Positions 2,246 to 62,743 of a stretch of DNA of 64,000 nucleotides are shown piece after piece. Within the stretch, counting starts at the first letter, position 1. The number at the start of each line of letters is the position of its first letter. The position numbers and the translations under genes are program-made. The notes below the pieces were generated by a model. It made no database searches and was not told where the DNA came from. It was given only the letters and a program-made list of their open reading frames with translations. This DNA is from Minisyncoccota bacterium (GTDB lineage Bacteria; Patescibacteriota; Minisyncoccia; UBA6257; JAGOQP01), in contig JBAZTS010000002.1 of NCBI GenBank assembly GCA_041661795.1, forward strand, positions 36,263 to 100,262. Direction: 5' to 3'.

Positions 2246-2321
2246 TTGGTATCTTGTAGCTTGTGATGTGTATTTTGGATGATAACCAGATACGAGCTAC
2301 TAAATACTAGCTACTAATAAC

Positions 2322-6043: not shown

Positions 6044-6769
6044 ATGTCTAAATTGGTGGTTTTAAATTGGAAGATGAATTTGCCCGATCTGCCGTCTTGG
6101 AGTGAAGCTTTGAAATTTAAAGGGAATAATAGAATTGTAGTTTGTCCTTCTTTCACTCATATAAATAAGCTAAGGAATTTATTAAAAGGAAAGGGGATAT
6201 ATATTGGGGCCCAAAACGTTTCTTATAAAGAAAATGGAGCTTTGACTGGAGAGGTGTCGGTTGAGATGTTAAAAGATGTCGGCGCTTCATATGCAATTAT
6301 AGGACATTCTGAAAGAAGATATGTTTTTGGAGAAACCGATGAAATTATAGCTAAGAAAGCAAAAGTTGTTCTTGAAGGCAGAATTACTCCTATTCTTTGT
6401 GTGGGAGAAACAAAGAAAATGACTAGAGAAAAATCCTGGAATTTTATCCGCTCTCAACTTCAAAAAGACTTATCTCTTACCCCTTACCCCTTACCCCTTA
6501 CCACTAGTTTAGTTGTGGCTTACGAGCCGGTCTGGTCTATTGGGGGAAATAAAAATATTGATGCGTCACATTCGGCTCATCTAATCGACAGAATAAGAGA
6601 GTTTCTATATACTAACTACAAGATGCGAGCCACCATCTTATACGGCGGAAGTGTTAATAGTAAAAATATTAAATCGCTTTTGTCTGTTGGTGAAATTGAC
6701 GGATTTTTGGTCGGGTCCGCCAGTTTAAAAAAAGAAGAAGTTAAAAAATTATTAAAATTAATAAATTAA
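6044..6769 (+). CDS. tpiA: triosephosphate isomerase, with an in-frame heptamer-repeat insertion
   Basis: …AYEPVWSIGGNK…, …YGGSVN… and IGHSERR motifs; the LTPYPLPLTTS segment is encoded by (TTACCCC)n at 6478-6505. Confidence 0.9.
   Translation: MSKLVVLNWKMNLPDLPSWSEALKFKGNNRIVVCPSFTHINKLRNLLKGKGIYIGAQNVSYKENGALTGEVSVEMLKDVGASYAIIGHSERRYVFGETDEIIAKKAKVVLEGRITPILCVGETKKMTREKSWNFIRSQLQKDLSLTPYPLPLTTSLVVAYEPVWSIGGNKNIDASHSAHLIDRIREFLYTNYKMRATILYGGSVNSKNIKSLLSVGEIDGFLVGSASLKKEEVKKLLKLIN
6478..6505 (+). repeat. (TTACCCC)x3 plus TTACCAC in-frame within tpiA
   Basis: Direct reading. Confidence 0.85.
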
Positions 6770-10787: not shown

Positions 10788-13350
10788 AATTTTTTCTCCT
10801 CTTGGTTCTTACCGTAAGAGAGTGGTTAAGATAAATGATTTTGAAAAAGAATTGTCTTTGCTCTCTGATGAGGAAATTAAGAATAAATCTCTTAAATTAA
10901 AAGAGGGTTTTTCCGGTGATCAAGAATATCTGGAAAACAACCTTGAATTGGCTTTTGCTTTAGTTAGAGAATCCTCCAAAAGAAATTTAAAGCAAAGACA
11001 TTTTGATGTCCAGCTTATTGGAGGTTTGGCAATGTCAGATGGAAAAATAGTTGAAATGGCAACGGGAGAAGGAAAAACTTTATCAGCCACACTGCCGGCT
11101 TATCTTTATGGAATCAGTGGAAAAGGAGTTCATGTTATTACTGTCAATGATTATCTTGCCAAAAGAGACGCTGTCTGGATGGGACAGATATATGATTTTT
11201 TAGGATTAACAGTTAGTTGTTTAGTTCATGACGGGGCGTATGTGTATGATTCTAAATATACAAATGAAATTCAAAGTGAAGAAGTGGCAGATGAAAAAAG
11301 AGATGTTGTTGGGGGTTTTAAAGTAATTCAAGAGTTTTTGAAACCAATATCAAGAAGAGAGGCCTATTTGTCAGATATAGTTTATGGAACTAACCACGAG
11401 TTTGGTTTTGATTATCTTAGAGATAATTTGGCTTACAATTCTAAAAATCAGGTCCAACGAGAGCATTATTTTGCTATTATTGACGAGGTAGACAGTATTT
11501 TAATAGATGAAGCCAGAACTCCTTTGATTATTTCAGCTCCAGACGTTGAAGCGGCTCAATACTACAAGGTTTTTGCCAAAGTAGTTAGTTCTTTGGAGAT
11601 TGAAAAGGATTATACAGTTGAAGAGAAAGATAGATCGGCCGTTATGACAGATGATGGTATTGCCAAGGTGGAAAAAATGCTGAATATAGAAAATATTTAT
11701 GATGCTCAATCTGCTTCCCTAGTTCACTATCTTGAAGAATCTTTAAAAGCCAAAGCTCTTTTTAGAAGAGACAGGCATTATGTTGTTAAATCCACTCCTT
11801 CTGGCGAGGGAGAAATTATTATAGTTGATGAATTTACCGGTCGCTTAATGCATGGAAGAAGGTATTCTGGGGGACTTCACCAGGCCATTGAAGCCAAAGA
11901 GGGGGTGAGAATTCAAGAGGAATCAAAAACGTTTGCTCAAATAACTATACAAAATTATTTTCGTCTTTATGAAAAAATAAGCGGAATGACGGGAACCGCC
12001 AAAACCAGCGCTGAAGAATTTAGGAAGGTTTACGGATTGGAAGTTGCTGTTATTCCATCCAATAAGCCCAGAGTAAGAAACGATAAATCGGATTTGATTT
12101 TCAAAACAAAAGAATCCAAATATCAGGCCATCGTGGGTGCTATAAAAGAAATGGTTGAAAAAGGCCAACCGGTTTTAGTTGGCACAACATCAATAGATGA
12201 GAACGAACTTTTATCCTCATATTTTTCCAATGCGGGAATAAAACATGAAGTGCTTAATGCCAAAAACCACGAAAGAGAGGGAGAAATAATTGCTCAGGCC
12301 GGAAGGTCGGAAGGCGTAACTTTAGCCACCAACATGGCTGGAAGAGGAGTGGATATAGTTTTAGGAGGAAATCCTCAAGATGTTTTGGATGCGCAAAAAG
12401 TTAAAGATGCCGGAGGACTTTTTGTTTTAGGAACTCAAAGAAATGAAGCCAGAAGAGTTGATAATCAGTTAAGAGGGCGCTCGGGAAGACAGGGGGATCC
12501 CGGAGAAACACAATTTTTTCTTTCTTTGGAGGATGATATGTTAAGAATTTTTGGAGGAGACAGAATCAAGTCAATGATGAATAGAATGAATATGCCCGAT
12601 GACGTTCCCATAGAATCATCTTTAATCGGAAAAGTAGTGGACGAAGCCCAAAAGAAAGTTGAAGGAATGAATTTTGATATCAGAAAACACCTGTTGGAAT
12701 ATGACGATGTTTTAAACAAACAAAGAAAAGCTGTTTATAGGAAAAGACAAAATATCTTAGAAAGGTTAGAAAAAGGGGAGTTGGAAGATGTTTTAAAAGA
12801 ATTGATTTTAGACGTCCTTAAATTTATTTTTTCAAATCCAACCAAGGATTTGGATTCTATAAAACAATGGTTTGAAGAAGTCGGGTTGGTTAGTAAAGAA
12901 GAAAAAGACAGTTTTAACGTTGAACAAGTGGAAAGCTCAATAAATCAGGGAGTGTTGGATGAATTTATTCTATCTAAAATAAATAACGTCTGTCAGGACC
13001 CGCAAGTTGGATTAAAAATACTTGGGTCCTTGGACGGGTTTTGGACTAATCACTTGGAAAATCTGGAGGCCTTATTGGAATCGGTAAGGATGAGAGCTTA
13101 TGGTCAAAAGGACCCACTGGTTGAATATAAAAGAGAAGGCCATCAGCTTTTTAAGGATTTAATAATTAACGCTCAAGTTTGGGTTGTCTCTAATGTTTTT
13201 AAGGAAATTCAAATCAATCCCAACAAAAATGTTTCTCAGAAATCTTTAGATACGATATACGATATACGAAATACGGATTCCAAATTAGGCCGTAATGACC
13301 CTTGTTATTGCGGAAGCGGTAAAAAATATAAAAAGTGCCATGGAAAATAA
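10765..13350 (+). CDS. secA: preprotein translocase ATPase SecA
   Basis: 861 aa; DEAD-like motor motifs (MATGEGKTL, …DEVDSILIDEARTPLIIS…); C-terminal zinc finger CYCGSGKKYKKCHG. Confidence 0.95.
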   Translation: MMTSILDKIFSPLGSYRKRVVKINDFEKELSLLSDEEIKNKSLKLKEGFSGDQEYLENNLELAFALVRESSKRNLKQRHFDVQLIGGLAMSDGKIVEMATGEGKTLSATLPAYLYGISGKGVHVITVNDYLAKRDAVWMGQIYDFLGLTVSCLVHDGAYVYDSKYTNEIQSEEVADEKRDVVGGFKVIQEFLKPISRREAYLSDIVYGTNHEFGFDYLRDNLAYNSKNQVQREHYFAIIDEVDSILIDEARTPLIISAPDVEAAQYYKVFAKVVSSLEIEKDYTVEEKDRSAVMTDDGIAKVEKMLNIENIYDAQSASLVHYLEESLKAKALFRRDRHYVVKSTPSGEGEIIIVDEFTGRLMHGRRYSGGLHQAIEAKEGVRIQEESKTFAQITIQNYFRLYEKISGMTGTAKTSAEEFRKVYGLEVAVIPSNKPRVRNDKSDLIFKTKESKYQAIVGAIKEMVEKGQPVLVGTTSIDENELLSSYFSNAGIKHEVLNAKNHEREGEIIAQAGRSEGVTLATNMAGRGVDIVLGGNPQDVLDAQKVKDAGGLFVLGTQRNEARRVDNQLRGRSGRQGDPGETQFFLSLEDDMLRIFGGDRIKSMMNRMNMPDDVPIESSLIGKVVDEAQKKVEGMNFDIRKHLLEYDDVLNKQRKAVYRKRQNILERLEKGELEDVLKELILDVLKFIFSNPTKDLDSIKQWFEEVGLVSKEEKDSFNVEQVESSINQGVLDEFILSKINNVCQDPQVGLKILGSLDGFWTNHLENLEALLESVRMRAYGQKDPLVEYKREGHQLFKDLIINAQVWVVSNVFKEIQINPNKNVSQKSLDTIYDIRNTDSKLGRNDPCYCGSGKKYKKCHGK

Positions 13351-13387: not shown

Positions 13388-15280
13388 TTATTGTTCTATA
13401 CAGTAAAGTCTATTAGTCAAGTTGCATGCCTCAATACCAGTGTAAGCCCAGCCACCGATAGCAGTGTTGGTGTATCCATAAGCTCCGTATCCACCCGCAG
13501 AGTTAGTTGTCCAGTTTGAACAGTCACTTGCCCCCTTGTAAAGTCCGGTAAAATCAAAATCTGTCCATACATAATCATTAACAAGAGTTCCATTTTCATC
13601 ATACTCTACTTTATTCATTAGATAATTTGTGCCATCAAATCTTACCCACGGCATTACGTATGGAGAAGTTGTTGTTGCCAAGCTAGAATCGGCGACAACA
13701 TAACCACCCATATTAATTAAACGTATCCAGTTATATCCTATTGTTGTTATTGGTTCTACGGTTGTACTGTATTGTCCAATAATTGCCTCCCACGTTCCGC
13801 CTAAGCTAGCAGCGTTTGCTCGTGCCTGACACTTAGCATGAGCTCCAGAAACTCCACCAAGATTTCCGTCATATAGAGCGGATGTTACAAATACTCTTTT
13901 TGTGAGAGTTGTTGTTGCCGATCCAGAAGCAACAGCCGCGTCAACATAGGCCTTTGTAGTGGCATCGGAATCAGCTGTGGGAGCAGCTAAGTTGGTTAGT
14001 TTGTATGTCGGCGTTGCACCAGTAAGTTTTATATTACCTTTAACTTCAAGCGCTTCTGTTGGAAGAGTTGAAGAAGATAATCCTATCCCAACTTTTGAAT
14101 TAGTTAAGTCCAAAGTCAGTGTTGATGTATCGGATAAAACTTGATAACCGGCAATACAAGGATTTCCAAGACAGATGTCATCTGTAAGAAGAAATTGAAC
14201 ATTTTTTCTACCATAAAATATCATATCATTAAGGGAACTTACTGCCGAAGATGCTCTGCCAAACCACCCTACCGCATAACCTTCATCATCTTCATTGCCA
14301 AAAGAACTTTTTGCTCTACTGGATGAGAATCCATATTGTGGTTCCGATGATACTCCTTCTGCCCACCAATATCCAAAATTATAAGGAGCTCTTGCAGACA
14401 AAACTGATCCGGCCACATCCAGTTTCGCTTTATATGCTGCTGACGTTGATGTTCCTATAACAACTTTATCTCCACTATTACCAACGGTAAAAACAGAAGT
14501 GCTTGAAGCTTTTATTCCCCCTGCGGTTTCTAAACTATAAGACGGAGCTGTTGTGCCTATTCCCACATTTCCTTGCACAATAAGTCCGTTTGAAGGAGCT
14601 GTGCTAGCTCCGGCATATGAAGACCCGATAGCCGCGCCTCCTGCTACGTCCAATTTATTTATTAAAGTTGAAACCCCTATCCCAACGTTTCCGGAAAATG
14701 CAGCGTTCTTCCATCTGGTTGGATTTATTCCAACAGAATATGAGTTGTCCGTTCCGGGAAGCAAATCGGAATCAAATGTCGCTGCCGAAGCTCTGGAAAC
14801 AGCTGATCTCAAACTTCTTGTTACGTTATTTCCTCCAACGTCTTGAGCAGATGATAAAGCCAAATCAATTTGAACCACGTCTTTTCCGGGATATTGAGTT
14901 AACTTCTTAAATTCTAAAGAATCAACCACCACTTTTTCATTAGTAAGCGCTTGAGCTGAATTATTTCCTTCTCTTATGTAAATTTGTCCTCCAGAAAGAT
15001 AAATTGTGGATGTGGTCGTATCTTTCATTCTTAGAACTAAGGAATCAGTGCTGGCTCCCGCTCCTATTTCTATTACGCTGGACTCTTTAACTAATCTTTG
15101 AATGGTATTCATCACAAAATTCAATTGACCCGATAACTCATTTTCAGCAGATTGCTCGACTTGGGTTTTTGTTACCGTTGTCATTATGCCAGTAATAATT
15201 CCTGTAGATATTGCCAAAATACCCACATAAATAAGCACCTCGGTTAAAGTAAAACCTTTGTTTTGTTTGTAGATTCTCAT
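13388..15280 (-). CDS. type IV pilin-like protein (prepilin N-terminal methylation motif) with a large lectin-like C-terminal domain
   Basis: N-terminus MRIYKQNKG|FTLTEVLIYVGILAIS (class III signal: G-FTLxE plus hydrophobic helix); 630 aa; C-terminal Cys-containing region with a WIxL motif; the gene is GC-richer than its flanks. Confidence 0.65.
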   Translation of the reverse strand: MRIYKQNKGFTLTEVLIYVGILAISTGIITGIMTTVTKTQVEQSAENELSGQLNFVMNTIQRLVKESSVIEIGAGASTDSLVLRMKDTTTSTIYLSGGQIYIREGNNSAQALTNEKVVVDSLEFKKLTQYPGKDVVQIDLALSSAQDVGGNNVTRSLRSAVSRASAATFDSDLLPGTDNSYSVGINPTRWKNAAFSGNVGIGVSTLINKLDVAGGAAIGSSYAGASTAPSNGLIVQGNVGIGTTAPSYSLETAGGIKASSTSVFTVGNSGDKVVIGTSTSAAYKAKLDVAGSVLSARAPYNFGYWWAEGVSSEPQYGFSSSRAKSSFGNEDDEGYAVGWFGRASSAVSSLNDMIFYGRKNVQFLLTDDICLGNPCIAGYQVLSDTSTLTLDLTNSKVGIGLSSSTLPTEALEVKGNIKLTGATPTYKLTNLAAPTADSDATTKAYVDAAVASGSATTTLTKRVFVTSALYDGNLGGVSGAHAKCQARANAASLGGTWEAIIGQYSTTVEPITTIGYNWIRLINMGGYVVADSSLATTTSPYVMPWVRFDGTNYLMNKVEYDENGTLVNDYVWTDFDFTGLYKGASDCSNWTTNSAGGYGAYGYTNTAIGGWAYTGIEACNLTNRLYCIEQ

Positions 15281-16012: not shown

Positions 16013-18334
16013 ATGTTAAGCGACAATATACGCAATTTTTGTATTATAGCCCACATAGATCACGGCAAATCTACATTGGCTGATAGGTTGCTTGAAATTA
16101 CAGGAACTATAGATAAGAGGAAGATGAAGAACCAATATCTTGATCAATTGGAATTGGAAAGAGAAAGAGGGATAACTATCAAAATGGCTCCTGTCCGCAT
16201 GCTCTATGCGCTGACTAACGCCGACTCTACGCCGACTGACGCAGACAATAAGAAATTAGATAATGCGAGTAGTCAATTATTGTATGAAGATTTAACCTAT
16301 AAAATAAGAGGAGTGTTGTTTGGCGTAAAGAAAAAAATAGGACTTGGTCATAAAGAAGTTATTTACCAAAAGGCCATAGAAGAAGAATTGACAAAAGAGA
16401 ACATACCTTTTGAAAAAGAAAAAATAATTAATATAGAACTTGATAATAAAAGTCTTGGCGTATACAGACCAGATTTTGTTATTGATAATAAAATTATATT
16501 AGAGATAAAATCTTTGCCTTTTATTGGAGATGTTGAGAAAAGGCAAGTTTGGACATATCTTAAGGGATCAGAATATAAATTGGCTTTATTAGTCAATTTC
16601 AATTCTAGAGATATTGATATTAAAAGAGTTGTGTATGATACAGCCAGAGAAATTCAGCGTGAGTCAGCGTTTAGTCAGCGTAAGTCGGCGCAGGTTGAGC
16701 AGTATGTGCTCAACCTGATAGACACTCCCGGGCATCCGGATTTTGGTTATGAAGTTTCCAGAGCTTTGGAAGCGGTTGAGGGGGCAATTTTGTTGGTTGA
16801 TGGAATGCAAGGAATACAAGCACAAACGTTATCTAATTTTTATGCTGCCAAAAAAGCCGGACTTACAATTATTGGCGCGGTTAACAAAGTGGATTTAAAT
16901 ATTCCTGACATAGATAAAGTTGTAATGGAAACAGCGGAGCTAATTGGTTGTGGGCCAGAACAAATTCATAAAATATCAGGAAGAACAGGAGAGGGAGTTC
17001 AACAGCTTTTGGGAGCAGTTATTCTTAGAATCCTACCTCCAAAAGCTGTAATTCCCAATTTCCAATTCCCAATTTCCAATTTTGGAAGGGCATTAATATT
17101 TGATTCTTTTTATGACGACCACAAAGGAATTATAGCCAGTGTCAGGGTATTTAATGGAGAATTTAATCAGTTTGATGATGTGGTTTTGGTGGCTGCTAAA
17201 GAAAAATTTAAAACAAAAGAAGTCGGATATTTTTCTCCGACCCTAAATCCTTCAAAAAGAATTTTAGAGGGAGAGATAGGTTATTTGGTTACCGGGATAA
17301 GAGACCCGTATAAAATAAAAATCGGTGACACGGTAATAGGTCACAAATCACAAGTCGCGCATCACGAATCGTATGCTTTGCCCGGATACAAAGAACCAAA
17401 GCCGGTGGTGTTTGTTTCTTTCTATCCAGACAATCCGGATGAATATGATGATTTAAAAAAATCTTTGGAAAGATTAAAGCTTAACGACTCTTCTTTTGCT
17501 TTTGAGCCGGATTTAAATGAAGTGTTGGGCAGGGGATTTAAAGGAGGATTTTTGGGAAAGCTTCATTTTGAAATAATTTCTCAGCGTCTTGAAAGAGAGT
17601 TTGGAATAAAAACAATCACATCTTTTCCTTCGGTCAGTTATAAAATAAAAACTTCTTCCAAACACTTAGCTCATCTAAAATTGGACGAAGATGGATTTTT
17701 CATAGCGTATAATCCCAAAGATATTCCTGAAGAATTTGAAAAGATATTAGAACCGATGATAAAAGTTGAAATTGTTTCATCACAAAAAATATTGGGAACA
17801 GTTTTGGGACTTAAAGATGCTTTTCGTTGGGAATACATAGAGACCCAACAATTGGGAGAAAAAGTTATTATTAAAACCAGAATGCCCTTGGCTGAGCTTA
17901 TCTCGGATTTTGACGACCAGTTAAAATCGGTTTCAGGTGGATTTGCTTCTTTTAGTTATGAAGAAGACGGCTATCAACAGGGCGATTTAATTAGGATGGA
18001 TATTTTAGTGGCAGACGAAATAGTTCCTGGGCTTTCTAGAATTCTTCCCAAAAAAGACATAGAATATCCGGCCAGGAAAATGGTTGTTCGCTTAAAGGAA
18101 GTATTGCCTCATCAGCAATTTACCCAAGCTATTCAAGCCAAAGTCGGAGGGAGAATTATAGCCAGAGAAACTATTGCGGCTTTAAGAAAAGATGTGACCG
18201 GATATCTTTATGGAGGAGACAGAACAAGAAAAATGAAACTTTGGAAAAAACAGCAAAGAGGCAAAAAGAAACTTCTTTCTATGGCCAAAGTGACCATATC
18301 TCCAGAAAACTTCAAGAAACTTCTTTCAAAATAA
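16013..18334 (+). CDS. lepA: elongation factor 4 (LepA) carrying a ~165-aa in-frame insertion (GxxExxY/PDDEXK_3 domain) in the G domain
   Basis: N-terminal NFCIIAHIDHGKSTLADRLL, …LIDTPGHPDFGYEVSRAL…, NKVDL, and the LepA C-terminal domain; the insertion lies between the ITIK (G2) and DTPGH (G3) motifs. Confidence 0.9.
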   Translation: MLSDNIRNFCIIAHIDHGKSTLADRLLEITGTIDKRKMKNQYLDQLELERERGITIKMAPVRMLYALTNADSTPTDADNKKLDNASSQLLYEDLTYKIRGVLFGVKKKIGLGHKEVIYQKAIEEELTKENIPFEKEKIINIELDNKSLGVYRPDFVIDNKIILEIKSLPFIGDVEKRQVWTYLKGSEYKLALLVNFNSRDIDIKRVVYDTAREIQRESAFSQRKSAQVEQYVLNLIDTPGHPDFGYEVSRALEAVEGAILLVDGMQGIQAQTLSNFYAAKKAGLTIIGAVNKVDLNIPDIDKVVMETAELIGCGPEQIHKISGRTGEGVQQLLGAVILRILPPKAVIPNFQFPISNFGRALIFDSFYDDHKGIIASVRVFNGEFNQFDDVVLVAAKEKFKTKEVGYFSPTLNPSKRILEGEIGYLVTGIRDPYKIKIGDTVIGHKSQVAHHESYALPGYKEPKPVVFVSFYPDNPDEYDDLKKSLERLKLNDSSFAFEPDLNEVLGRGFKGGFLGKLHFEIISQRLEREFGIKTITSFPSVSYKIKTSSKHLAHLKLDEDGFFIAYNPKDIPEEFEKILEPMIKVEIVSSQKILGTVLGLKDAFRWEYIETQQLGEKVIIKTRMPLAELISDFDDQLKSVSGGFASFSYEEDGYQQGDLIRMDILVADEIVPGLSRILPKKDIEYPARKMVVRLKEVLPHQQFTQAIQAKVGGRIIARETIAALRKDVTGYLYGGDRTRKMKLWKKQQRGKKKLLSMAKVTISPENFKKLLSK
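16209..16693 (+). mobile_element. in-frame inserted element: GC-rich terminal inverted repeats (tandem decamers CGCYGACTNA / inverted AGTCRGCG) flanking an AT-rich GxxExxY (PDDEXK_3) nuclease-domain cargo
   Basis: Left TIR 16209-16244 (cgctgactaa cgccgactcta cgccgactgac); right TIR 16661-16693 (gagtcagcgt ttagtcagcgt aagtcggcg); cargo YKIRGVLFGV…GLGHKEVIYQKAIEEEL…YRPDFVIDNKIILEIKS…LALLVNFNS…IKRVV matches the GxxExxY family. Confidence 0.7.
17050..17084 (+). repeat. heptamer array AATTCCC-AATTTCC-AATTCCC-AATTTCC-AATTTTG in-frame within lepA
   Basis: Direct reading; encodes IPNFQFPISNF. Confidence 0.85.
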
Positions 18335-18365
18335 TTTTTATTTGTGTCTTTTTTTAAATAAGCTT

Positions 18366-18462
18366 TAGGAAAGATTTTGAGGCCATGCGGAAGACGGCGG
18401 TCTGAGCTAGAGGGATTTTTCAGCAGAAAAATACCCGTGCCTAAAAATTTTTTCTAAAGCGG
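18366..18462 (+). repeat. ~100-nt MITE-like element, copy 1 (imperfect TIRs GAAAGATTTTGAGG / CCTAAAAATTTTTTC flanking a conserved 60-nt core)
   Basis: Core GGCCATGCGGAAGACGGCGGTCTGAGCTAGAGGGATTTTTCAGCAGAAAAATACCCGTGCC; its reverse complement recurs at 46836-46932. Confidence 0.7.
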
Positions 18463-19477: not shown

Positions 19478-20668
19478 ATGAAATATCTTAGAAATGTCAA
19501 AATAGAAAAGATAAGAAACAAAACCTGCGTTTTAAGGTTGGGTTTGGATATAAAGGATGGTGAGTTAAAAAATTCGTTGAGAGTTATAAAATCTATCCCG
19601 ACACTCAAATTTCTATTAAAAAACGACTGCAAAGTAGTGATAATTTCACATCGAGGTAGACCTCAAGAGGGGAAAGAGGAAAGTGAAAAGAGGAAAGTGA
19701 AAAGAGAAGAAACTTTAAGATCATTTGTGGAGATTTTTGAAAAACTACTAAAAACAAAGATTAGTTTTGATGACTCTTTTGATTTTAAAAAGATGAGTGA
19801 AAAGATTAAAAAACTTCACTCAAAATCTATAGTTATTGTTGAAAATATAAGATTAGTAAAAGGAGAAAAGGATGATAACGATAAGCTAGGGAGAGAATTG
19901 GCTTCTTTGGGAAATTTTTATGTGAATGATGATTTTTCTACCAGTCACAGAAAAAACGCTTCTTTATGTGCGATAACAAAATTCACACCTTCTTATGTTG
20001 GCCTGCAGTTTGAAGAAGAAATAAAGAATTTAGACAAAGTTCTTAAAAATCAAAGGAAGCCAGTTGTTCTGATTGTAGGGGGAGTTAAATTGTCGGACAA
20101 AGTTGGCGTAATAAAAAATTTCTTAAACAAGGCAGATTATGTTTTGACCGGTGGGGGAGTTTCCAATACTTTCTTTGCTGCTAAAGAAATTCCAGTTGGT
20201 GATTCGTTAATTGATAAAGAAATGATGAAAATGGCAAAAACCTTACTTAAATCAAAAAAAATCATTTTACCCCAAGACGTTAGGATAAAAGGAAAATCTA
20301 TATTGGATATAGGGGATAAAACCATTGAAGAATATAAAAAAATAATAGAAAAAGCAGGGACTATTATTTGGGGTGGACCGTTAGGATATTTTGAGGACAA
20401 AAAATTTGCCAAAGGAACATTTGAAATAGCCAGAGCGATTTTAAAATCAAAAGCTTTTTGTGTTATTGGCGGCGGAGAAACTACAGTCGCCTTTCTTAAG
20501 GCAACTCGCGGACTTACACGGACTTCACGCAGAACTACGCGGAAAACAGTCAGCGTCAGTCAGCGTTCAGTCGGCGTTGGTCAGCGCTTGTTTCTGTCTA
20601 CTGGTGGAGGGGCAATGTTGGAATATCTAGCAGGTAAAAAATTACCGGCTTTGGAAGCGCTTAAATAA
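19478..20668 (+). CDS. pgk: phosphoglycerate kinase with two in-frame repeat insertions
   Basis: …KVVIISHRGRPQ…, …YVNDDFSTSHR…, …GGGETTVA…STGGGAMLEYLAGK. Extra segments KEESEKRKVKREE (14-mer tandem repeat) and TRGLTRTSRRTTRKTVSVSQRSVGVGQRL (GC-rich TIR element). Confidence 0.9.
   Translation: MKYLRNVKIEKIRNKTCVLRLGLDIKDGELKNSLRVIKSIPTLKFLLKNDCKVVIISHRGRPQEGKEESEKRKVKREETLRSFVEIFEKLLKTKISFDDSFDFKKMSEKIKKLHSKSIVIVENIRLVKGEKDDNDKLGRELASLGNFYVNDDFSTSHRKNASLCAITKFTPSYVGLQFEEEIKNLDKVLKNQRKPVVLIVGGVKLSDKVGVIKNFLNKADYVLTGGGVSNTFFAAKEIPVGDSLIDKEMMKMAKTLLKSKKIILPQDVRIKGKSILDIGDKTIEEYKKIIEKAGTIIWGGPLGYFEDKKFAKGTFEIARAILKSKAFCVIGGGETTVAFLKATRGLTRTSRRTTRKTVSVSQRSVGVGQRLFLSTGGGAMLEYLAGKKLPALEALK
19668..19713 (+). 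repeat. purine-rich 14-mer (GAGGAAAGTGAAAA)x2 with degenerate flanks, 7-nt periodic, in-frame within pgk
   Basis: Direct reading; encodes KEESEKRKVKREE. Confidence 0.85.
20507..20588 (+). mobile_element. cargo-less copy of the GC-rich decamer-TIR element, in-frame within pgk
   Basis: cgcggactta cacggacttca cgcagaacta cgcggaaaa | cagtcagcgt cagtcagcgt tcagtcggcgt tggtcagcg: the same direct-then-inverted subrepeat architecture as the lepA element; 50-60% GC against a ~35% background. Confidence 0.6.
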
Positions 20669-20673: not shown

Positions 20674-21522
20674 ATGAAAGATATTGTTGTTTTATATCAT
20701 AAAGATTGCTGGGACGGATTTGGAGCTGCTTGGGCGGCTTGGAAAAAATTTGGCGATAAAGCTCAATATATCCCAGTTGGCTACGAAGAAAATCTACCCA
20801 AGGGTTTAATTAATAAGGAAATATATCTAGTTGATTTTTGCTATGAAGATAATTTAATGAAGAAGATTATTGGTAATAATAAAAAAGTTATAGTTATTGA
20901 CCATCATTTTAGTAGGGAGAAATTTATAAAAAGTGTTAAGGGTTGTATTTATGGAAGAAATAATTCTGGGTCAATTCTCTCTTGGAAATATTTTCATCCA
21001 AACAAAAAAGTTCCCATATTTTTGAAACACATAGAAGACATTGATCTATGGAGTTTTAAATTAAAAGATTCTTACGAAATTATGCTGGCGGTTGATTTAA
21101 AAACTCGCGATTTTAATAGTTGGAGTAAAATTGCCAAAGATTTAGAAGATAAAAAAACAAAAGGTAAATATATAAATGAGGGTAAGATAATTTTAAATTA
21201 TACCAATAGAATCGTAACTGATATTGCAAAAAAAGCTGTTCCTGTTTTGATTGACGGTAAAAAAGCCATGGCGGTTAATGGACCTCATTTTATACATTCA
21301 GAAATAGGAAATGTTTTACACAATAATGAATATCCAATCGGTCTGATTTGGCGAGCGGAAGGAAACAACATTTTTGTTTCTTTGAGGTCAAAAAAAGGAG
21401 GGAAAACAGATGTTTCTAAAATTGCCAAAAAATATGGTGGCGGGGGACATAAATCGGCATCGGGATTCGGGATAAAAAATGGGTTAGGTAAAAAACTTCC
21501 CTGGCGTATTATTAAGCAGTAG
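20674..21522 (+). CDS. DHH/DHHA1 family phosphoesterase (NrnA-like)
   Basis: N-terminal HKDCWDGFGAAW (DHH-type metal site), VIDHH, and C-terminal GGGHKSASGF (DHHA1 GGGH motif). Confidence 0.65.
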   Translation: MKDIVVLYHKDCWDGFGAAWAAWKKFGDKAQYIPVGYEENLPKGLINKEIYLVDFCYEDNLMKKIIGNNKKVIVIDHHFSREKFIKSVKGCIYGRNNSGSILSWKYFHPNKKVPIFLKHIEDIDLWSFKLKDSYEIMLAVDLKTRDFNSWSKIAKDLEDKKTKGKYINEGKIILNYTNRIVTDIAKKAVPVLIDGKKAMAVNGPHFIHSEIGNVLHNNEYPIGLIWRAEGNNIFVSLRSKKGGKTDVSKIAKKYGGGGHKSASGFGIKNGLGKKLPWRIIKQ

Positions 21523-21604
21523 CTTGTATATAGTAGCTCGTATCTTGTATAAGAGAAGATTGTATGCCAACTACTAGCTACAAGATACTAGATACAATTT
21601 TATT

Positions 21605-22030
21605 ATGAATAAAATTATCATTTATACTGATGGAGGTTCTCGGGGGAACCCCGGGCCTTCGGCTCTGGGGGTTTATTTTAAGGATTTAAACAAAAAATAC
21701 TCCCAACATCTTGGCAAAGTCACTAATAATGAAGCTGAGTATCAGGCCATTGTTTTTGCTTTAAAAAAATCCAAACAATTAATTGGGAAGAAAAAAAGCG
21801 ATAAATCTCATATTGAAATTAGGTCCGATAGCCAGCTCATAGTCAACCAGTTGAGCGGAGAGTTTAAGTTGAAAGAAAAAGGCCTATGGAAATATTTTAT
21901 AGAAATTTGGAATTTAAAGCAGGAATTTGAGAAGGTGGATTTTGTTTATATTCCACGGGAGGAAAATAAAGTGGCCGATAGATTAGTTAACGAAGAATTG
22001 GATAAAGCGGGTGCCTCTAAATTATTTTAA
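21605..22030 (+). CDS. rnhA: ribonuclease HI
   Basis: IYTDGGSRGNPGPSALG…NNEAEYQAIVFAL…IRSDSQLIVNQ…ADRLVNE: the RNase H catalytic D/E/D/D arrangement. Confidence 0.8.
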   Translation: MNKIIIYTDGGSRGNPGPSALGVYFKDLNKKYSQHLGKVTNNEAEYQAIVFALKKSKQLIGKKKSDKSHIEIRSDSQLIVNQLSGEFKLKEKGLWKYFIEIWNLKQEFEKVDFVYIPREENKVADRLVNEELDKAGASKLF

Positions 22031-22038
22031 TTTTAGCT

Positions 22039-22067
22039 TTGACTTTTTCGATGTTGAGTTGTATTAT
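22039..22067 (+). promoter_or_regulatory. sigma70-like promoter for the RNase P RNA (TTGACT-N17-TATTAT)
   Basis: TTGACT at 22039-22044, a 17-nt spacer, TATTAT at 22062-22067, placing the TSS at about 22074, the 5' end of the P1 helix. Confidence 0.6.
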
Positions 22068-22071
22068 CTTA

Positions 22072-22418
22072 AAAGATAAGTGAGTGATTGCCCTGACATT
22101 TGTTGGGGAGGAAAGTCCGGACTCCCATCTCCGACGTAACGTCGGAGTAAACGTATTCGCTAACAGCGAACTATCGCAAGATAAGAGGTGCGAACAGAGA
22201 CGAGTCCTAATGGAAACATTAGGGGTGAAACGGTCCCGACGCCTATTTCGGGTTAGGGACTCCGACATCCGCAAGGATCGTCGGAGCTAAATCCTTGCGG
22301 GGTGCAAGACCGTATCCGCCCAGGGCGGGTGAGTCGCTTGAACCTGAGAGTAATTGAAGGTCCAGACAAATAATCACTATCCCGACGTAACGTCGGGACA
22401 CAGAATCCGGCTTATAGC
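22072..22418 (+). ncRNA. rnpB: RNase P RNA (bacterial type A)
   Basis: P4 consensus GGAGGAAAGUCCGGACUCC at 22109-22127; ACAGAAUCCGGCUUAUAG (ACAGARxxGGCUUA) near the 3' end; P1 pairing AGAUAAG/CUUAUCU; GC-rich relative to its surroundings. Confidence 0.8.
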
Positions 22419-22500
22419 TTATCTAAACATATCAAGAATCTCTCCTTAACGGGGGGATTTTTGATTGATTTATTAAGGGTTTTTTGATACTTTTAACAAG

Positions 22501-27654: not shown

Positions 27655-27781
27655 TTGGTAGAGGAAAGAGATAAGAGAAAAGGGAAAAGTAATAAGTAAT
27701 AAGCAACAAAACAAGACGCTCTAAACGGGTGTTTTGTTGATATTTATCGGGTTTTGATGTAAATTTTGAAAGGTAACTAAT

Positions 27782-35979: not shown

Positions 35980-36627
35980 TTAGTATCTTAATACCTTATT
36001 AATTCTCTCTACCGCCAAATTCATATTCCTCATTCCCTGACCGACAGGATAGTAGGTTGGATAAACTAAAAACTTTTTGTTTCTGACATTTAAAGTTTCA
36101 CCTTCTTTATTTTTATAATTGCTTACTTTTATTTTTTTATCCAAAAGAATCGAACTTACTTGATTCCCAAAGGTTATAATTTTTTTGGGATTGACCGACA
36201 AAATTTCTCGGAACATCAAATCCAGATATTCTCTAAAAATTCTATCATTAAGGGAATGAGCGTCTATTTGGGTGCACTTTGCTAAATTGGTTATATAAAC
36301 TTTGTTTTCGTTAATTTCTTGATAGATATTTTTTGAAAAGTCATAAGTCCAGTCACCAAACTTGATCTTTTGCGTTTTGTCAAAACTGCTTTTGGAAATA
36401 AACTCTAATTTATATAAAAGCTTCCATATATTTTTTGTTCCCAGCCACGGAGCTCTCAACCCTTTCCAATTTTTATCGGCGGATATGTTCCTTGCCGTGG
36501 GATTCATAAAAATAAGCATAATCTGGGGACTTCTAATACACCCGGCTCCGTATACGGAATTGAGATTAGAATGGCCGTGTAGAACCTGTAGTCGGTCAAA
36601 TCTTTTATGTAGGTGCTTTAACTGCAT
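35980..36627 (-). CDS. uracil-DNA glycosylase superfamily-like protein
   Basis: …MLIFMNPTARN… resembles the MUG/family-6 GxNPG-type motif. Confidence 0.4.
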   Translation of the reverse strand: MQLKHLHKRFDRLQVLHGHSNLNSVYGAGCIRSPQIMLIFMNPTARNISADKNWKGLRAPWLGTKNIWKLLYKLEFISKSSFDKTQKIKFGDWTYDFSKNIYQEINENKVYITNLAKCTQIDAHSLNDRIFREYLDLMFREILSVNPKKIITFGNQVSSILLDKKIKVSNYKNKEGETLNVRNKKFLVYPTYYPVGQGMRNMNLAVERINKVLRY

Positions 36628-38006: not shown

Positions 38007-38007
38007 A

Positions 38008-38040
38008 AATAAATCCTCTCATTTCGAGAGGATTTATTTT
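38008..38040 (+). terminator. rho-independent terminator
   Basis: aaataAATCCTCTCatttcGAGAGGATTtatttt. Confidence 0.65.
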
Positions 38041-38168
38041 TATAATATTTTGTGTAATTTTTATATCTATCATTTCTTGCTACAGCAACCAGATTTATAT
38101 ATAACCGGTACTTAATATGTAATTTTTTGTATATAGTATTTGGTATACGGTATACGATATTCGGTATT

Positions 38169-39272
38169 CTATTTTAGATTCTCTATTATAGCTATCTCAA
38201 AGGGCACCAAGGGGAAAGGATTGTATTTCATTTGGGAGTAGGCGGTGATGAGCGCTTTTATAAGTTTTATCTGCTCGTCCGTATCTATTTTAGCCGAATG
38301 TTTTTTTATTTCTTTTATTTGGCTTTCGGCCAATTCCTTTTCAAATATCTTTTCCAGTTCCGGATTAAGATGTAAAGAAAGAACCCTTCTTAAATATTCT
38401 GTCAGATCTTTGTTAAATTGAAAAAGATTGTATCCCTGACTGTTTATTTCGTATAAAAATTCCAGCGACTTTTGTAAGTCCTTTTTTATGACCAAATCGG
38501 CCATTTTTATTGTTTTTAGAAAATCAACTTTTCCCAAGATGCTTTCCACGTATTCAACGGTAATATTCTTGCCCTTCATGGAAACAATCTGGTCAAAAAG
38601 AGATTCGGCATCTCTTAAACTTCCTTCAGCTAAAAAGGCAATCATTTCCAAAGCTTCTTTTTCGTATTCTACTTTTTCTTCTTTGGCGATAAATGAAAGT
38701 TTTTTTATAATCTCCTGTAGTGTCAGCTTTCTAAAATGAAATCTCTGGGTTCGGGAAACAATAGTGGGAGGGAGCTTGTCGTATTCGGTGGTGGCTAATA
38801 TAAAAACGGCATGGGCTGGCGGTTCTTCTAAAGTTTTTAAAAGAGCGTTAAATGCCTGTGGAGTGAGCATGTGAACTTCATCTATGATAAAGATTTTGTA
38901 TTTAAGATAAGAGGGGAGTGTTTTTATGTTTTCTTTGAGATTTCTTATTTCATCTATTCCTCGGTTGGAAGCGGCGTCAATTTCAACGACATCCAAAGCT
39001 CTGCCTTCTTCAACTTGTAAACAGGCGTGACATTCTCCACAGGGCTCTCCTTGCTTGGCAAAGTTTTCGTCCTCTTGTCTTTTCTGGCAGTTAATTATTT
39101 TGGAAAAGATTCTGGCGATAGTTGTTTTGCCGGTTCCTCTTGAACCGTAGAAAAGATAGGCATGAGAAATTTTACCTTCCTTAACTGAATTTTGAAGTAT
39201 GGTAACCGTATTTTCCTGACCGTAAATATCAGCAAGTTTTTTTGGTCGGTATTTTCTATAAATAGCTAACAT
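38169..39272 (-). CDS. dnaX: DNA polymerase III subunit gamma/tau (short form, 367 aa)
   Basis: KYRPKKLADIYGQENTVTIL…GSRGTGKTT (Walker A), Zn module CGECHAC, DEVHML, SRTQRF sensor. Confidence 0.85.
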   Translation of the reverse strand: MLAIYRKYRPKKLADIYGQENTVTILQNSVKEGKISHAYLFYGSRGTGKTTIARIFSKIINCQKRQEDENFAKQGEPCGECHACLQVEEGRALDVVEIDAASNRGIDEIRNLKENIKTLPSYLKYKIFIIDEVHMLTPQAFNALLKTLEEPPAHAVFILATTEYDKLPPTIVSRTQRFHFRKLTLQEIIKKLSFIAKEEKVEYEKEALEMIAFLAEGSLRDAESLFDQIVSMKGKNITVEYVESILGKVDFLKTIKMADLVIKKDLQKSLEFLYEINSQGYNLFQFNKDLTEYLRRVLSLHLNPELEKIFEKELAESQIKEIKKHSAKIDTDEQIKLIKALITAYSQMKYNPFPLVPFEIAIIENLK

Positions 39273-39278: not shown

Positions 39279-39315
<37 letters not shown>

Positions 39316-46817: not shown

Positions 46818-46835
46818 GGGTTTTATTATTTCGTT

Positions 46836-46932
46836 TCAGAAAAGGTTTTGGGGCACGGGTATTTTTCTGCTGAAAAATCCCTCAAGCTCAGCCCGTCGGC
46901 TTCCGCACGGTCCCAAAACCTTTTCTAAAACT
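46836..46932 (-). repeat. ~100-nt MITE-like element, copy 2 (TIRs AGAAAAGGTTTTGGG / CCCAAAACCTTTTCT)
   Basis: Core is about 90% identical to the reverse complement of 18381-18441; 15-bp perfect flanking inverted repeats. Confidence 0.7.
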
Positions 46933-51133: not shown

Positions 51134-51178
51134 TTATAATAATCATATACCGAATACAGTATACCGTATACCGCAAAA

Positions 51179-57417: not shown

Positions 57418-57570
57418 TTATGGGCGGTCCGGGATGGGTGGAGCGGGTGCGGGCTTGACCACTTTGGCCACGAGGCCGATTAATATGGTCAGCATTGAAA
57501 CGGGTACTACGGTGGCGATGATGACGGACGATTCCACCACCACCAGAGACCACTTGACTAGGTAGTGCAT
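57418..57570 (-). CDS. GC-rich 50-aa hydrophobic peptide (MHYLVKWSLVVVESSVIIATVVPVSMLTILIGLVAKVVKPAPAPPIPDRP)
   Basis: AGGAGG 4 nt upstream of the ATG; single TM; terminator hairpin GGACCGC/GCGGUCC overlaps the stop codon. Confidence 0.3.
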   Translation of the reverse strand: MHYLVKWSLVVVESSVIIATVVPVSMLTILIGLVAKVVKPAPAPPIPDRP

Positions 57571-62699: not shown

Positions 62700-62734
62700 A
62701 GTATATAGTATTTAGTAGTTAGTATATAGTATAA
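62700..62734. repeat. heptamer tandem array AGTATAT-AGTATTT-AGTAGTT-AGTATAT-AGTATAA
   Basis: Direct reading; in the divergent SDR/rmuC promoter region. Confidence 0.75.
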
Positions 62735-62743
62735 TAGAAACAA

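What the first reader, a model, noticed from the sequence alone, without database searches (positions are those of the whole stretch)
2247..2321. Pervasive heptanucleotide-periodic tandem arrays, both intergenic and in-frame inside tpiA, lepA and pgk
7-nt periodic arrays recur across the window. Intergenic examples: GTATCTT-GTAGCTT-GTGATGT-GTATTTT…TACGAGC-TACTAAA-TACTAGC-TACTAAT (2247-2321, downstream of rpsI); a related mosaic AGTAGCT-TGTATAT-AGTAGCT-CGTATCT-TGTATAA… (21517-21600), which shares the 13-mer GTATCTTGTAGCT and its complement; GTATATA-GTATTTG-GTATACG-GTATACG… (38139-38180); (GTATAAA)x4 (39281-39315); ATACCGA-ATACAGT-ATACCGT-ATACCGC (51137-51164); AGTATAT-AGTATTT-AGTAGTT-AGTATAT-AGTATAA (62700-62734). 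In-frame examples: (TTACCCC)x3-4 in tpiA (6478-6505, encoding LTPYPLPLTTS); AATTCCC/AATTTCC x5 in lepA (17050-17084, encoding IPNFQFPISNF); a purine-rich 14-mer x2 in pgk (19668-19713, encoding KEESEKRKVKREE). A period of seven is neither codon-based nor the helical repeat. It suggests either a replication-slippage signature peculiar to this genome or binding-site arrays for an unknown sequence-specific factor. The intergenic ones sit in promoter-proximal positions.
Basis: seen in the sequence. Interest (0 to 1): 0.5.

Follow-up and report, generated by a model that had tools for sequence, protein, structure and literature searches.

The report
Seven-base repeat arrays between genes
The 7-base repeat arrays are real, and the ones between genes belong to a widespread family that elsewhere forms the two inverted arms around a small "intervening-sequence protein" gene. 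They therefore look like leftovers of a hairpin-forming selfish cassette, resized by replication slippage, rather than a dedicated promoter code.

Summary
**Observation: confirmed.**
- Runs of at least 4 copies of one trinucleotide at fixed spacing number 30 at period 7, against 0-3 at every other period from 4 to 12.
- 8 of 13 merged arrays lie in the 9% of the window that is non-coding.

**Source.** The window comes from a Candidatus Paceibacterota (CPR) contig whose genes mostly lack Shine-Dalgarno sites and look leaderless.

**The intergenic arrays are one family.** They share a GTA/TAC core, with consensus GTAGCTn/GTATyTn and usually 4-6 units.
- One 27-nt version occurs twice in the window and again at the orthologous site of a relative with 70% protein identity.
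- A 21-specified-base pattern from it hits 76 metagenome contigs and no viral contigs.

**Architecture.** Paired arms are almost always GTA-arm then TAC-arm (29 against 1).
- The gap between arms is either under 100 nt or 367-412 nt.
- The long gaps I checked hold a 23S_rRNA_IVP ("S23p", bAvd-like) gene.
- Three S23p genes chosen without reference to the repeats carry the same arms.

This is the build of rRNA intervening sequences. The window holds two ORF-less two-arm copies and four solo arms, and no S23p gene.

**Turnover.** Arm length changes by one heptad between strains 96.5% identical, which fits slippage.

**In-frame arrays.** They sit in hypervariable loops and are not ancestral.

Function remains inferred. 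I rate this a new variant of a known kind.

The parts
2249..2276 (+). Left (GTA) arm of ORF-less two-arm element #1: GTATCTT GTAGCTT GTGATGT GTATTTT. It starts 4 nt after the rpsI stop codon.
2288..2318 (-). Right (TAC) arm of element #1. On the minus strand it reads GTAGCTA GTATTTA GTAGCTC GTATCT. The last TAC ends 7 nt before the ATG of the DUF2238 gene at 2322.
21519..21553 (+). Left (GTA) arm of ORF-less two-arm element #2: GTAGCTT GTATATA GTAGCTC GTATCTT GTATAAG. The TAG of the first heptad is the stop codon of the DHH-family gene. This is the same 27-nt element as 2288-2314(-), and it is conserved at the orthologous site in L083.
21568..21599 (-). Right (TAC) arm of element #2: TACTAGC TACAAGA TACTAGA TACAATT. 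It ends 9 nt before the rnhA ATG at 21605 and gives TACAAT + 6 nt + ATG.
38129..38170 (+). Solo arm: GTATATA GTATTTG GTATACG GTATACG ATATTCG GTATTCT. It lies between a bidirectional terminator (38004-38042) and the dnaX stop codon.
39281..39315 (+). Solo arm: (GTATAAA)x4 GTAAAGA. On the minus strand it reads TTTATAC x4, giving TATACT + 7 nt + the dnaX ATG, and it sits just downstream of a G+C-rich hairpin and T-run read by eye on the minus strand. A Logan contig ends inside it.
51148..51175 (-). Solo arm: TACCGAA TACAGTA TACCGTA TACCGCA, 7 nt before the ATG of the pilin-like gene at 51179. It lies between divergent genes, the other being tgt.
62701..62735 (+). Solo arm between divergent genes: GTATATA GTATTTA GTAGTTA GTATATA GTATAAT. 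It gives TATAAT + 8 nt + the rmuC ATG on the plus strand, and TATACT + 6 nt + the ATG of the SDR gene on the minus strand.
13250..13279 (-). GTAT-type array (TACGATA x2, TACGAAA, TACGGAT) inside secA, in the linker just before the C-terminal SEC-C zinc motif.
6476..6505 (+). In-frame (CTTACCC)x3.9 array in tpiA, encoding LTPYPLPLTT in the loop before beta-strand 6. The loop is 2 residues longer than in the best-matching solved TIM.
17050..17084 (+). In-frame AATTCCC/AATTTCC array in lepA, in the hypervariable linker between the G domain and domain II. Length and sequence differ in all five relatives.
19671..19713 (+). In-frame purine-rich array in pgk (period 7/14), in a variable loop after the SHRGRP motif.
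27666..27707 (+). Intergenic period-7 array with an AAG core (AAGAGAT ... AAGTAAT AAGTAAT), about 75 nt upstream of tRNA-Gln. It is not of the GTA family.

Best explanation
Two things overlap in this window.

**1. A general slippage bias.** Replication slippage with a 7-nt step makes heptads the dominant non-codon repeat period. This accounts for the unrelated in-frame arrays, which sit in tolerant protein loops.

**2. A dispersed repeat family.** The intergenic arrays with a GTA/TAC core are copies of one family, (GTAGCTn/GTATyTn) x 4-6.
- In CPR bacteria this family forms the two inverted terminal arms of a small cassette.
- The cargo, when present, is a 23S_rRNA_IVP gene ('S23p', a four-helix-bundle, bAvd-like protein).
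- This is the build of the intervening sequences (IVS) known from rRNA genes.
- The window carries two ORF-less two-arm copies (2249-2318 and 21519-21599) and four solo arms.

**How it most likely works.** In any transcript that crosses an element, the arms can pair into an imperfect stem of about 30-40 bp. That is the kind of duplex RNase III cuts in rRNA IVS. The cassette can therefore sit between cistrons, or in rRNA, without harm, and behaves as a tolerated selfish insertion. Arm length drifts by slippage. Where an arm abuts a leaderless gene, its last heptad has been co-opted as a -10-like hexamer.

**Shown here:** family identity, arm polarity, the bimodal gap, the link with S23p, pairing potential, and a one-heptad length change between strains.

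**Inferred:** RNA processing, mobility, and any present-day function.
For: - **Period-7 excess.**
- **One sequence family.** The same 27-nt element occurs twice in the window, with 0 expected by chance. It is conserved at the orthologous DHH|rnhA spacer of L083, whose rnhA is 70% identical.
- **Wide distribution.** A pattern of 21 specified bases hits 76 metagenome contigs and 0 of 2.9 million viral contigs.
- **Unit consensus.** Heptads outside the search seed still give GTA-T/G-Y-T-n, and arrays most often have 4-5 units.
- **Arm polarity.** With gaps under 100 nt, GTA-arm then TAC-arm occurs 29 times and the reverse order once.
- **Bimodal gap.** Gaps are either under 100 nt or 367-412 nt, with none between 100 and 360.
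- **Cargo.** S23p ORFs lie between a GTA arm and a TAC arm in L097, L101, L105, L140 and L162 and in L117.
- **Test free of the repeat seed.** Three of three S23p genes taken from a protein search (Portnoybacteria, and Moranbacteria twice) have a GTATyTn arm abutting the ATG and an nArATAC arm right after the stop. They are inserted inside operons.
- **Other lineages.** More divergent S23p genes carry other tandem units, such as GCTAAnn and octamers AAGTnnTT. Three to four GACAGAT heptamers lie upstream of S23p in the Coxiella IVS, whose stem RNase III cuts (PMC4990558).
- **Known CPR context.** CPR rRNA insertions are reported to carry 23S_rRNA_IVP ORFs and short ORF-less IVS (PMC11270868).
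- **Pairing potential.** Arms can pair at -21 to -45 kcal/mol, or -0.84 kcal/nt against -0.28 for shuffled arms.
- **Cassette conservation.** The whole cassette is 90% identical between L140 and L162, while the sequence on both sides falls outside the only BLAST alignment.
- **Slippage.** One arm differs by one heptad between strains 96.5% identical.
- **Patchy distribution.** Related Paceibacterota loci L086, L087, L167 and L168 have no arrays.
- **No regulon.** Neighbours are diverse housekeeping genes; the only recurrent family is 23S_rRNA_IVP, in 6 of 86.
Against: - There is no S23p homologue in the 64-kb window. Four of the six intergenic GTA-family loci are solo arms with no partner.
- No transposase and no proven excision or insertion event was seen; target-site duplications were not looked for. 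Mobility is an inference.
- Arms of one element pair no better than arms taken from different elements: -0.835 against -0.80 +/- 0.03 kcal/nt. Position 7 is complementary in only 34% of cases.
- The window's own hairpins are weak, with z-scores of about -1 to -2.
- Near-exact conservation of an arm at 70% protein identity points to some selected function beyond tolerated junk. So does the tight 5-8 nt spacing between the last TAC and the start codon, seen in 16 of 41 cases.
Confidence: 0.55

Rival explanations
1. The arrays are binding-site arrays for a sequence-specific factor acting in trans. One unit would bind one subunit, and adjacent subunits would bind cooperatively. The factor could be an omega/RHH-like repressor, or the pentameric S23p protein itself. 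It would control or insulate the adjacent leaderless promoters.
For: - Six of the seven positions are constrained across contigs from many environments, while position 7 is free.
- The arrangement is strictly -> <-. From my own knowledge, not tested here, this is the orientation preference described for omega repressor heptads of pSM19035.
- An arm is conserved at the orthologous site at 70% protein identity.
- The 3' arm has exactly 5 heptads in 7 of 8 loaded cassettes. S23p is reported to be a homopentamer (PMC4990558), and PDB entry 2gsc holds five chains.
- The repeat unit changes along with the S23p lineage.
- The arrays overlie the core-promoter position of leaderless genes.
Against: - No candidate binder was found in the window: there is no RHH domain among the small ORFs and no S23p.
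- The neighbours show no regulon, and gene starts and ends face the arrays equally often.
- Related genomes lack the arrays altogether.
- Co-variation of unit and protein is equally expected if the whole cassette is simply inherited as one piece.
Confidence: 0.2
2. The arrays are the core promoters, or part of the promoter architecture, of leaderless genes in this lineage.
For: - Most genes here lack a Shine-Dalgarno site and carry (TGn)TATAAT 6-8 nt before the ATG.
- In arrays at 39281, 62701, 21572 and 51148 the last heptad gives TATACT, TATAAT, TACAAT or TATACC 6-8 nt before the ATG.
- The array at 39281 lies in the 114-bp gap upstream of dnaX and follows what reads as a terminator hairpin, leaving no room for a separate promoter.
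- The last TAC ends 5-8 nt from the ATG in 16 of 41 cases.
Against: - Many arms end in GCTACT or GCTACC, which lack the essential TA of a -10 hexamer.
- Arms abut stop codons as often as start codons.
- Arrays occur next to convergent gene ends (38129) and inside genes (13250).
- In S23p cassettes the 5' arm runs to within 0-3 nt of the ATG, too close for a -10 element.
- The sigma-70 scan finds nothing in elements #1 and #2.
- Relatives have ordinary TATAAT promoters and no arrays.
Confidence: 0.1
3. The arrays are purely neutral simple-sequence repeats. Each arose locally by slippage, and the arrays have no common identity or function.
For: - The period-7 bias is seen in all bacterial loci sampled and is known from the literature (PMC4679880 and PMC4692102, both citing Mrazek 2007).
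- Arrays with unrelated units occur in coding loops.
- The unit number changes between strains.
Against: Independent slippage cannot explain the following:
- the same GTAGCTn/GTATyTn units in 76 unrelated contigs;
- the identical 27-mer at two window loci;
- the 29:1 arm polarity;
- the constant association with S23p ORFs.
Confidence: 0.08
4. The arrays are RNA-level elements of the translation-initiation region. They would replace Shine-Dalgarno sites, as proposed for the TAACTGA repeats of Beggiatoaceae, or act as HutP/TRAP-like protein-binding repeats in 5' UTRs.
For: - The arrays end a few nucleotides before start codons that lack a Shine-Dalgarno site.
- The heptad TAGCTnG resembles TAACTGA.
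- UAG or UAU recurs every 7 nt, as in HutP sites (my own knowledge, not tested here).
Against: - Genes without arrays also lack Shine-Dalgarno sites.
- The arrays occur in both orientations relative to neighbouring genes and next to gene ends.
- Solo arms lie at convergent gene ends.
- If the mRNAs are leaderless, the arrays are not in the transcript at all.
Confidence: 0.07

Closest known systems
23S rRNA intervening sequences (IVS) carrying an S23p / 23S_rRNA_IVP ORF (Coxiella, Leptospira, Salmonella; PMC4990558), and the IVS-like insertions in CPR rRNA genes (PMC11270868)
   Same: - A small four-helix-bundle ORF, or no ORF, sits between terminal inverted repeats that can form a long stem.
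[quoted passage not shown]
- Distribution across lineages is patchy.
   Different: - The elements here sit in ordinary intergenic spacers and inside operons, not in helix 25 or 45 of 23S rRNA.
- Both arms are built entirely of heptad arrays (GTAGCTn/GTATyTn), not unique sequence.
- ORF-less and solo copies outnumber loaded ones.
- RNase III cleavage was not tested.
Lineage-specific heptamer repeat families: GGGAATC in Xanthomonas and GGGGAYT in Nostoc (PMC4692102); the STRR heptamers of Calothrix mentioned there
   Same: - Intergenic arrays of degenerate heptamers with some positions conserved.
- The commonest size is about four units.
- Convergent inverted pairs are frequent (70-75 cases per Xanthomonas genome).
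- Length varies between related genomes, and no regulon is evident.
   Different: - The unit is different and AT-rich, with no G-quadruplex potential.
- A link between those families and S23p cassettes has not been reported. X. campestris does encode an S23p (XCC0516, PDB 2gsc), but I could not inspect its flanks.
TAACTGA direct repeats of marine Beggiatoaceae, cyanobacteria and some Bacteroidetes (PMC4679880)
   Same: - 2-6 heptamers lie just upstream of start codons that lack a Shine-Dalgarno site.
- The downstream genes show no functional pattern.
- A few copies lie inside ORFs.
- The unit is related: TAACTGA against TAGCTnG.
   Different: - The TAACTGA sets are near-perfect direct repeats in one orientation, and only one inverted pair was found.
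- Here inverted pairs are the rule, and the units alternate between GTAGCTn and GTATyTn.
Heptanucleotide excess among long simple-sequence repeats of prokaryotes (Mrazek et al. 2007, as summarised in PMC4679880 and PMC4692102)
   Same: Period 7 is the favoured non-codon tandem period, and polymerase slippage is the proposed cause.
   Different: That work describes a general bias. It does not explain a conserved unit, the arm polarity or the cargo gene.
REP/REPIN elements mobilised by RAYT transposases (PMC3116915)
   Same: - Short extragenic palindromic doublets in a fixed inverted orientation.
- A conserved GTAG head (my own knowledge).
- Many dispersed copies.
   Different: - REPs are unique-sequence hairpins, not tandem heptads.
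- No Y1 transposase (RAYT) was seen among 86 neighbouring genes.
Omega repressor heptad operators of plasmid pSM19035 (my own knowledge; not tested here)
   Same: - Contiguous 7-bp units in direct and -> <- orientation overlie promoters.
- One dimer binds per heptad, and the <- -> order is disfavoured.
   Different: - The unit there is WATCACW.
- It is a plasmid partition and copy-control system.
- No ribbon-helix-helix protein was identified here.

Membership tests
Heptanucleotide simple-sequence repeats (Mrazek class) | Head-to-tail units of 7 nt, longer and more frequent than chance | tested here: met
Heptanucleotide simple-sequence repeats (Mrazek class) | Unit-number polymorphism between close strains (slippage) | tested here: inconclusive
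   A one-heptad difference was seen in a related element, L099/L112 against L164. For the window itself, the only other assemblies are 100% identical.
S23p / IVS-type cassette | Two terminal arms in inverted orientation that can pair | tested here: met
   Elements at 2249-2318 and 21519-21599. Family-wide arm polarity is 29:1 and pairing energy is -0.84 kcal/nt.
S23p / IVS-type cassette | A 23S_rRNA_IVP (PF05635) ORF between the arms | tested here: not met
   There is no homologue in the window. The feature is met in related loci L097, L101, L105, L117, L140, L162, L171, L174 and L177. The window copies are therefore ORF-less derivatives at best.
S23p / IVS-type cassette | Location in 23S (or 16S) rRNA helices | tested here: not met
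   All window copies are intergenic or lie in protein-coding genes. There is no rRNA in the window.
S23p / IVS-type cassette | Excision of the stem by RNase III | not testable with these tools
   This needs RNA end mapping or an in vitro cleavage assay.
REP/REPIN | An associated RAYT (Y1 transposase) and a unique-sequence hairpin with a GTAG head | tested here: not met
   The arms are tandem heptads. No Y1_Tnp appears among the 25 most frequent of the 98 Pfam families listed for 86 neighbouring genes. Whole genomes were not searched.
Omega-type RHH heptad operators | Contiguous heptads in ->-> and -><- order over a promoter, plus a cognate ribbon-helix-helix protein | tested here: inconclusive
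   The arrangement is met. No RHH protein was found among the small ORFs of the window, and the rest of the genome was not available.
TAACTGA repeat network | The unit TAACTGA, in forward orientation, ending about 1 nt before the start codon | tested here: not met
   The unit is GTAGCTn/GTATyTn. The TAC-oriented arms end 5-8 nt before the ATG.
TIGR or CRISPR arrays | Repeat-spacer units of about 36 nt or 60-70 nt, with adjacent Tas or Cas genes | tested here: not met
   The unit here is 7 nt. TIGR units are 36 nt (PMC12045711). No Nop, Tas or Cas domain appears among the most frequent Pfam families of the neighbouring genes.

The most novel reading that the evidence does not exclude
Tandem heptad arrays may be the cognate nucleic-acid sites of the ring-shaped pentameric S23p / bAvd-like proteins, with five 7-nt units binding one pentamer. 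ORF-less and solo arrays scattered through a genome would then form a trans-acting network, regulatory or selfish. The same pairing could underlie the unexplained heptamer families of Xanthomonas (GGGAATC), Nostoc, Beggiatoaceae (TAACTGA) and the Coxiella IVS (GACAGAT).

What I saw that fits this reading:
- The repeat unit changes with the S23p lineage.
- The 3' arm has exactly 5 heptads in 7 of 8 loaded cassettes.
- PDB entry 2gsc, an S23p from X. campestris, holds five chains.

No binding evidence exists.
Probability: 0.2. Interest if true: 0.8.

Novelty: new variant of a known kind. Interest (0 to 1): 0.55.

Why it matters
Heptamer repeat families have been catalogued in several phyla for 35 years without an explanation. 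[quoted passage not shown]

If heptad arrays really are the arms of S23p cassettes, the two puzzles become one testable question: does the S23p pentamer bind the heptads, and are the arms cut by RNase III?

For CPR genomics it also matters in practical ways:
- These elements fill whole intergenic spacers.
- They break assemblies.
- They get translated into spurious N-termini.
- They can supply -10 boxes to leaderless genes.

Tried and rejected
- **A stable RNA hairpin as the selected feature.** Window folds give z-scores of only about -1 to -2. There is no element-specific complementarity.
- **A known RNA family.** Rfam finds nothing at arrays #1, #2 and #3 beyond terminator-like or hairpin-like noise.
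- **A small RNA downstream of the array at 38129.** None was found.
- **A regulon.** Neighbouring genes are diverse: rnhA, dnaX, rmuC, tgt, a pilin-like gene, an SDR and a DUF2238 gene in the window, and 98 Pfam families among 86 neighbours elsewhere.
- **A binder encoded nearby.** No RHH domain and no S23p were found in the window.
- **A Shine-Dalgarno substitute.** Genes without arrays also lack Shine-Dalgarno sites.
- **Strain-level polymorphism of the window's own arrays.** Only 100% identical assemblies exist. The closest relatives are 66-77% identical at the protein level.
- **Conservation of the array after rpsI.** Relatives at 62-65% identity have no arrays.
- **TIGR or CRISPR arrays.** The unit size is wrong.
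- **A phage-borne origin.** There are 0 hits in viral contigs.
- **One literature search** returned mostly irrelevant 'STRR' hits.

Full report

Yes.

TRF reports 14 period-7 rows, against 2.9 expected from 100 dinucleotide-preserving shuffles (maximum 7). Periods 9 and 10 are also raised in that test.

A sharper statistic removes the ambiguity. Maximal runs of at least 4 copies of one trinucleotide at exact spacing p number 30 at p=7 and 0-3 at every other p from 4 to 12. The commonest cores are TAC and GTA, which are reverse complements of each other. Arrays matching GTA or TAC in at least 11 of 12 core positions over four units number 10 at p=7 and 0-1 at p=5, 6, 8, 9 and 10.

After merging there are 13 arrays. 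Eight are intergenic, although only 9.2% of the window is non-coding (p = 4e-6). The shared 13-mer is confirmed.

Density is uneven. A further 18 kb of the same contig holds only one weak array.

**2. Context**

The dnaX, rnhA and rpsI proteins place the window in Candidatus Paceibacterota (CPR/Patescibacteria). The source is an ENA contig of 156 kb.

The window is 91% coding. Almost no gene has a Shine-Dalgarno site, and many have (TGn)TATAAT 6-8 nt before the ATG. Leaderless mRNAs therefore seem to be the rule, and anything in a 50-110-bp spacer is 'promoter-proximal' by necessity.

**3. The intergenic arrays are one family**

- The flagged stretch 2247-2321 is a GTA array followed by a TAC array, and so is 21519-21599.
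- The right arm of the first (minus strand, 2288-2314) and the left arm of the second (21519-21545) are the same 27-nt element, GTAGCTnGTATnTnGTAGCTCGTATCT, with none expected by chance.
- That element is kept at the orthologous DHH|rnhA spacer of L083, whose rnhA is only 70% identical.
- A pattern with 21 specified bases, GTAGCTNGTATNTNGTAGCTNGTAT, hits 76 metagenome contigs and none of 2.9 million viral contigs.
- Position 7 of the unit is uniform within an array but differs between arrays, while positions 1-6 are shared.
- Heptads outside the search seed still give GTA-(T>G)-(C/T)-T-n, and arrays most often have 4-5 units.

**4. Architecture**

Where two arms are adjacent, the order is GTA-arm then TAC-arm in 29 cases with a gap under 100 nt. 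The reverse order occurs once.

The gap is bimodal, either under 100 nt or 367-412 nt, with nothing between 100 and 360. In the long-gap elements I checked, the gap is a 23S_rRNA_IVP / bAvd-like ('S23p') ORF. The GTA arm abuts its ATG and the TAC arm follows its stop.

This association came from loci selected by the repeat, so I tested it the other way round. Three S23p genes taken from a protein search (Portnoybacteria, and Moranbacteria twice) all have a GTATyTn arm against the ATG and an nArATAC arm after the stop. They sit inside operons: YcaO|nitroreductase, and between a ferredoxin-type (Fer4) subunit gene and the POR_N catalytic subunit gene of a pyruvate:ferredoxin oxidoreductase operon.

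More divergent S23p genes carry other tandem units. These are GCTAAnn heptads, CyAGCCA heptads, and octamers AAGTnnTT with an inverted partner.

This is the build described for the Coxiella 23S rRNA IVS. There, an S23p ORF is preceded by 3-4 GACAGAT heptamers whose number varies between strains, and it sits inside a terminal inverted-repeat stem cut by RNase III (PMC4990558). CPR rRNA insertions are already known to include 23S_rRNA_IVP ORFs and short ORF-less IVS (PMC11270868).

**5. Turnover and mobility**

- Between strains 96.5% identical (L099/L112 against L164), the left arm is identical. The right arm differs by one heptad plus several substitutions.
- The whole cassette of about 520 nt (arm, S23p, arm) is 90% identical between L140 and L162, while the sequence on both sides falls outside the only BLAST alignment.
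- Homology between L115 and L159 stops at the array.
- Contigs end or are gapped inside arrays.
- Related Paceibacterota loci may have several arrays (L083, L089) or none (L086, L087, L167, L168).

All of this fits a slippage-resized, patchily distributed insertion. No transposase or insertion event was seen, and target-site duplications were not looked for.

**6. In-frame arrays**

- The lepA array lies in the hypervariable linker between the G domain and domain II.
- The pgk array lies in a variable loop after SHRGRP.
- The tpiA array lies in the loop before beta-strand 6.
- A GTAT-type array lies in the secA linker before the SEC-C motif.

Where relatives were available (lepA and pgk), sequence and length differ in all of them, so these are not ancestral loops. 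Their units, apart from secA, are unrelated to the GTA family. They are best read as products of the general 7-nt slippage bias. That bias is also visible in non-CPR loci, where 21 arrays occur at p=7 against 2-6 at p=5, 8, 10 and 11, and it is known from Mrazek 2007 (cited in PMC4679880 and PMC4692102).

**7. Functional readings tested**

- *Hairpin.* Arms can pair at -21 to -45 kcal/mol, far better than shuffled arms. They pair no better than arms taken from different elements, and position 7 is complementary in only 34% of cases. Window folds are weak. Pairing is thus a property of the family, not something maintained in each element.
- *Promoter.* TAC-oriented arms end 5-8 nt before an ATG in 16 of 41 cases. 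Four window arms give TATACT, TATAAT, TACAAT or TATACC at leaderless distance. However, many arms end in GCTACT, arms abut stop codons as often as start codons (43 and 43), and S23p 5' arms run right up to the ATG.
- *Regulon.* None is evident.
- *Binder.* None was found in the window.
- *Known RNA families and TIGR/CRISPR arrays.* No match.

**8. Comparison with what is known**

The closest relatives in kind are:
- IVS/S23p elements;
- the Xanthomonas GGGAATC family, which shows about four units, many convergent pairs and length variation (PMC4692102);
- the TAACTGA repeats (PMC4679880).

The window copies fail two defining IVS features, having no S23p ORF and no rRNA location. I therefore file them as ORF-less or solo derivatives that work like IVS arms, not as IVS proper.

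**9. Verdict**

The real identity of the intergenic arrays is a conserved heptad-arm family tied to S23p cassettes, which is a new variant of a known kind. The most novel reading not excluded is that S23p pentamers bind the heptads.

Noticed in passing
window 16209-16246 and 16654-16690 (inside lepA, 16013-18334): lepA carries an in-frame insertion of about 150 aa with a PDDEXK_3-like ('GxxExxY') domain. It is flanked by inverted arrays of tandem decamers (ACGCyGACTn). The same insertion is present in L086 but absent from L087, although the rest of their lepA aligns almost identically. It looks like a second class of cassette with repeat-built arms, this one living inside a protein-coding gene.
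   Followed up: partly
window 20509-20586 (inside pgk): Related decamer arrays (CGGACTTCA..., CAGTCAGCGT...) encode an Arg/Thr/Ser-rich insertion of about 22-28 aa that is absent from four relatives. It may be a cargo-less copy of the lepA-type element.
   Followed up: partly
L083 4546-4640, L084 5608-5635, L089 6058-6092 (lepA of relatives): The loop just before the DTPGH motif of LepA is a hot spot. Three relatives each carry in-frame heptad arrays of a different unit there. It is the same site that holds the PDDEXK_3 insertion in the window and in L086.
   Followed up: partly
whole window, e.g. upstream of 13388-15280(-), 30016, 30592, 35980-36627(-), 56685-57245(-): Nearly all genes lack a Shine-Dalgarno site and have (TGn)TATAAT 6-8 nt before the ATG, which suggests mostly leaderless mRNAs. 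Exceptions with a clear GGAGG site are the small ORFs 57558-57860(-) and 57918-58193(-).
   Followed up: partly
window 18361-18458 (+) and 46834-46932 (-): A roughly 100-nt intergenic sequence is repeated at 85% identity (motif ...AAAATACCCGTGCC..AAAACCTTTTCTAAAAC...). A similar motif lies upstream of the gene at 46956. I could not identify it.
   Followed up: no
L174 3001-3375, L177 3001-3375, L171 3001-3384: S23p cassettes are inserted inside operons. In L174 and L177 the cassette lies between a ferredoxin-type (Fer4) subunit gene and the POR_N catalytic subunit gene of a pyruvate:ferredoxin oxidoreductase operon, and the S23p stop codon overlaps the next gene's start. In L171 it lies between YcaO and nitroreductase genes.
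   Followed up: partly
L117 633-1583; L105 783-1181; L133 1000-1428: TAC arms are read into called proteins as 'KYKIQDT(K/R)YKI'-type peptides at N-termini, and once in mid-protein in L117. Gene callers probably start these genes too early.
   Followed up: no
L002 about 11150-11600: A divergent S23p gene is flanked by tandem octamers (AAGTnnTT) with an inverted partner downstream. The arm period is therefore not always 7.
   Followed up: partly
L082 start (= window 39308); L018 about 2852-2917: Assemblies break inside heptad arrays. One Logan contig ends within the (GTATAAA)x4 array, and a (CATACTA)x8 array runs into an N gap.
   Followed up: no
window 22017-22274 (-): An 85-aa ORF overlaps the RNase P RNA gene (22072-22430, Rfam 138.8 bits) and is almost certainly spurious.
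   Followed up: no
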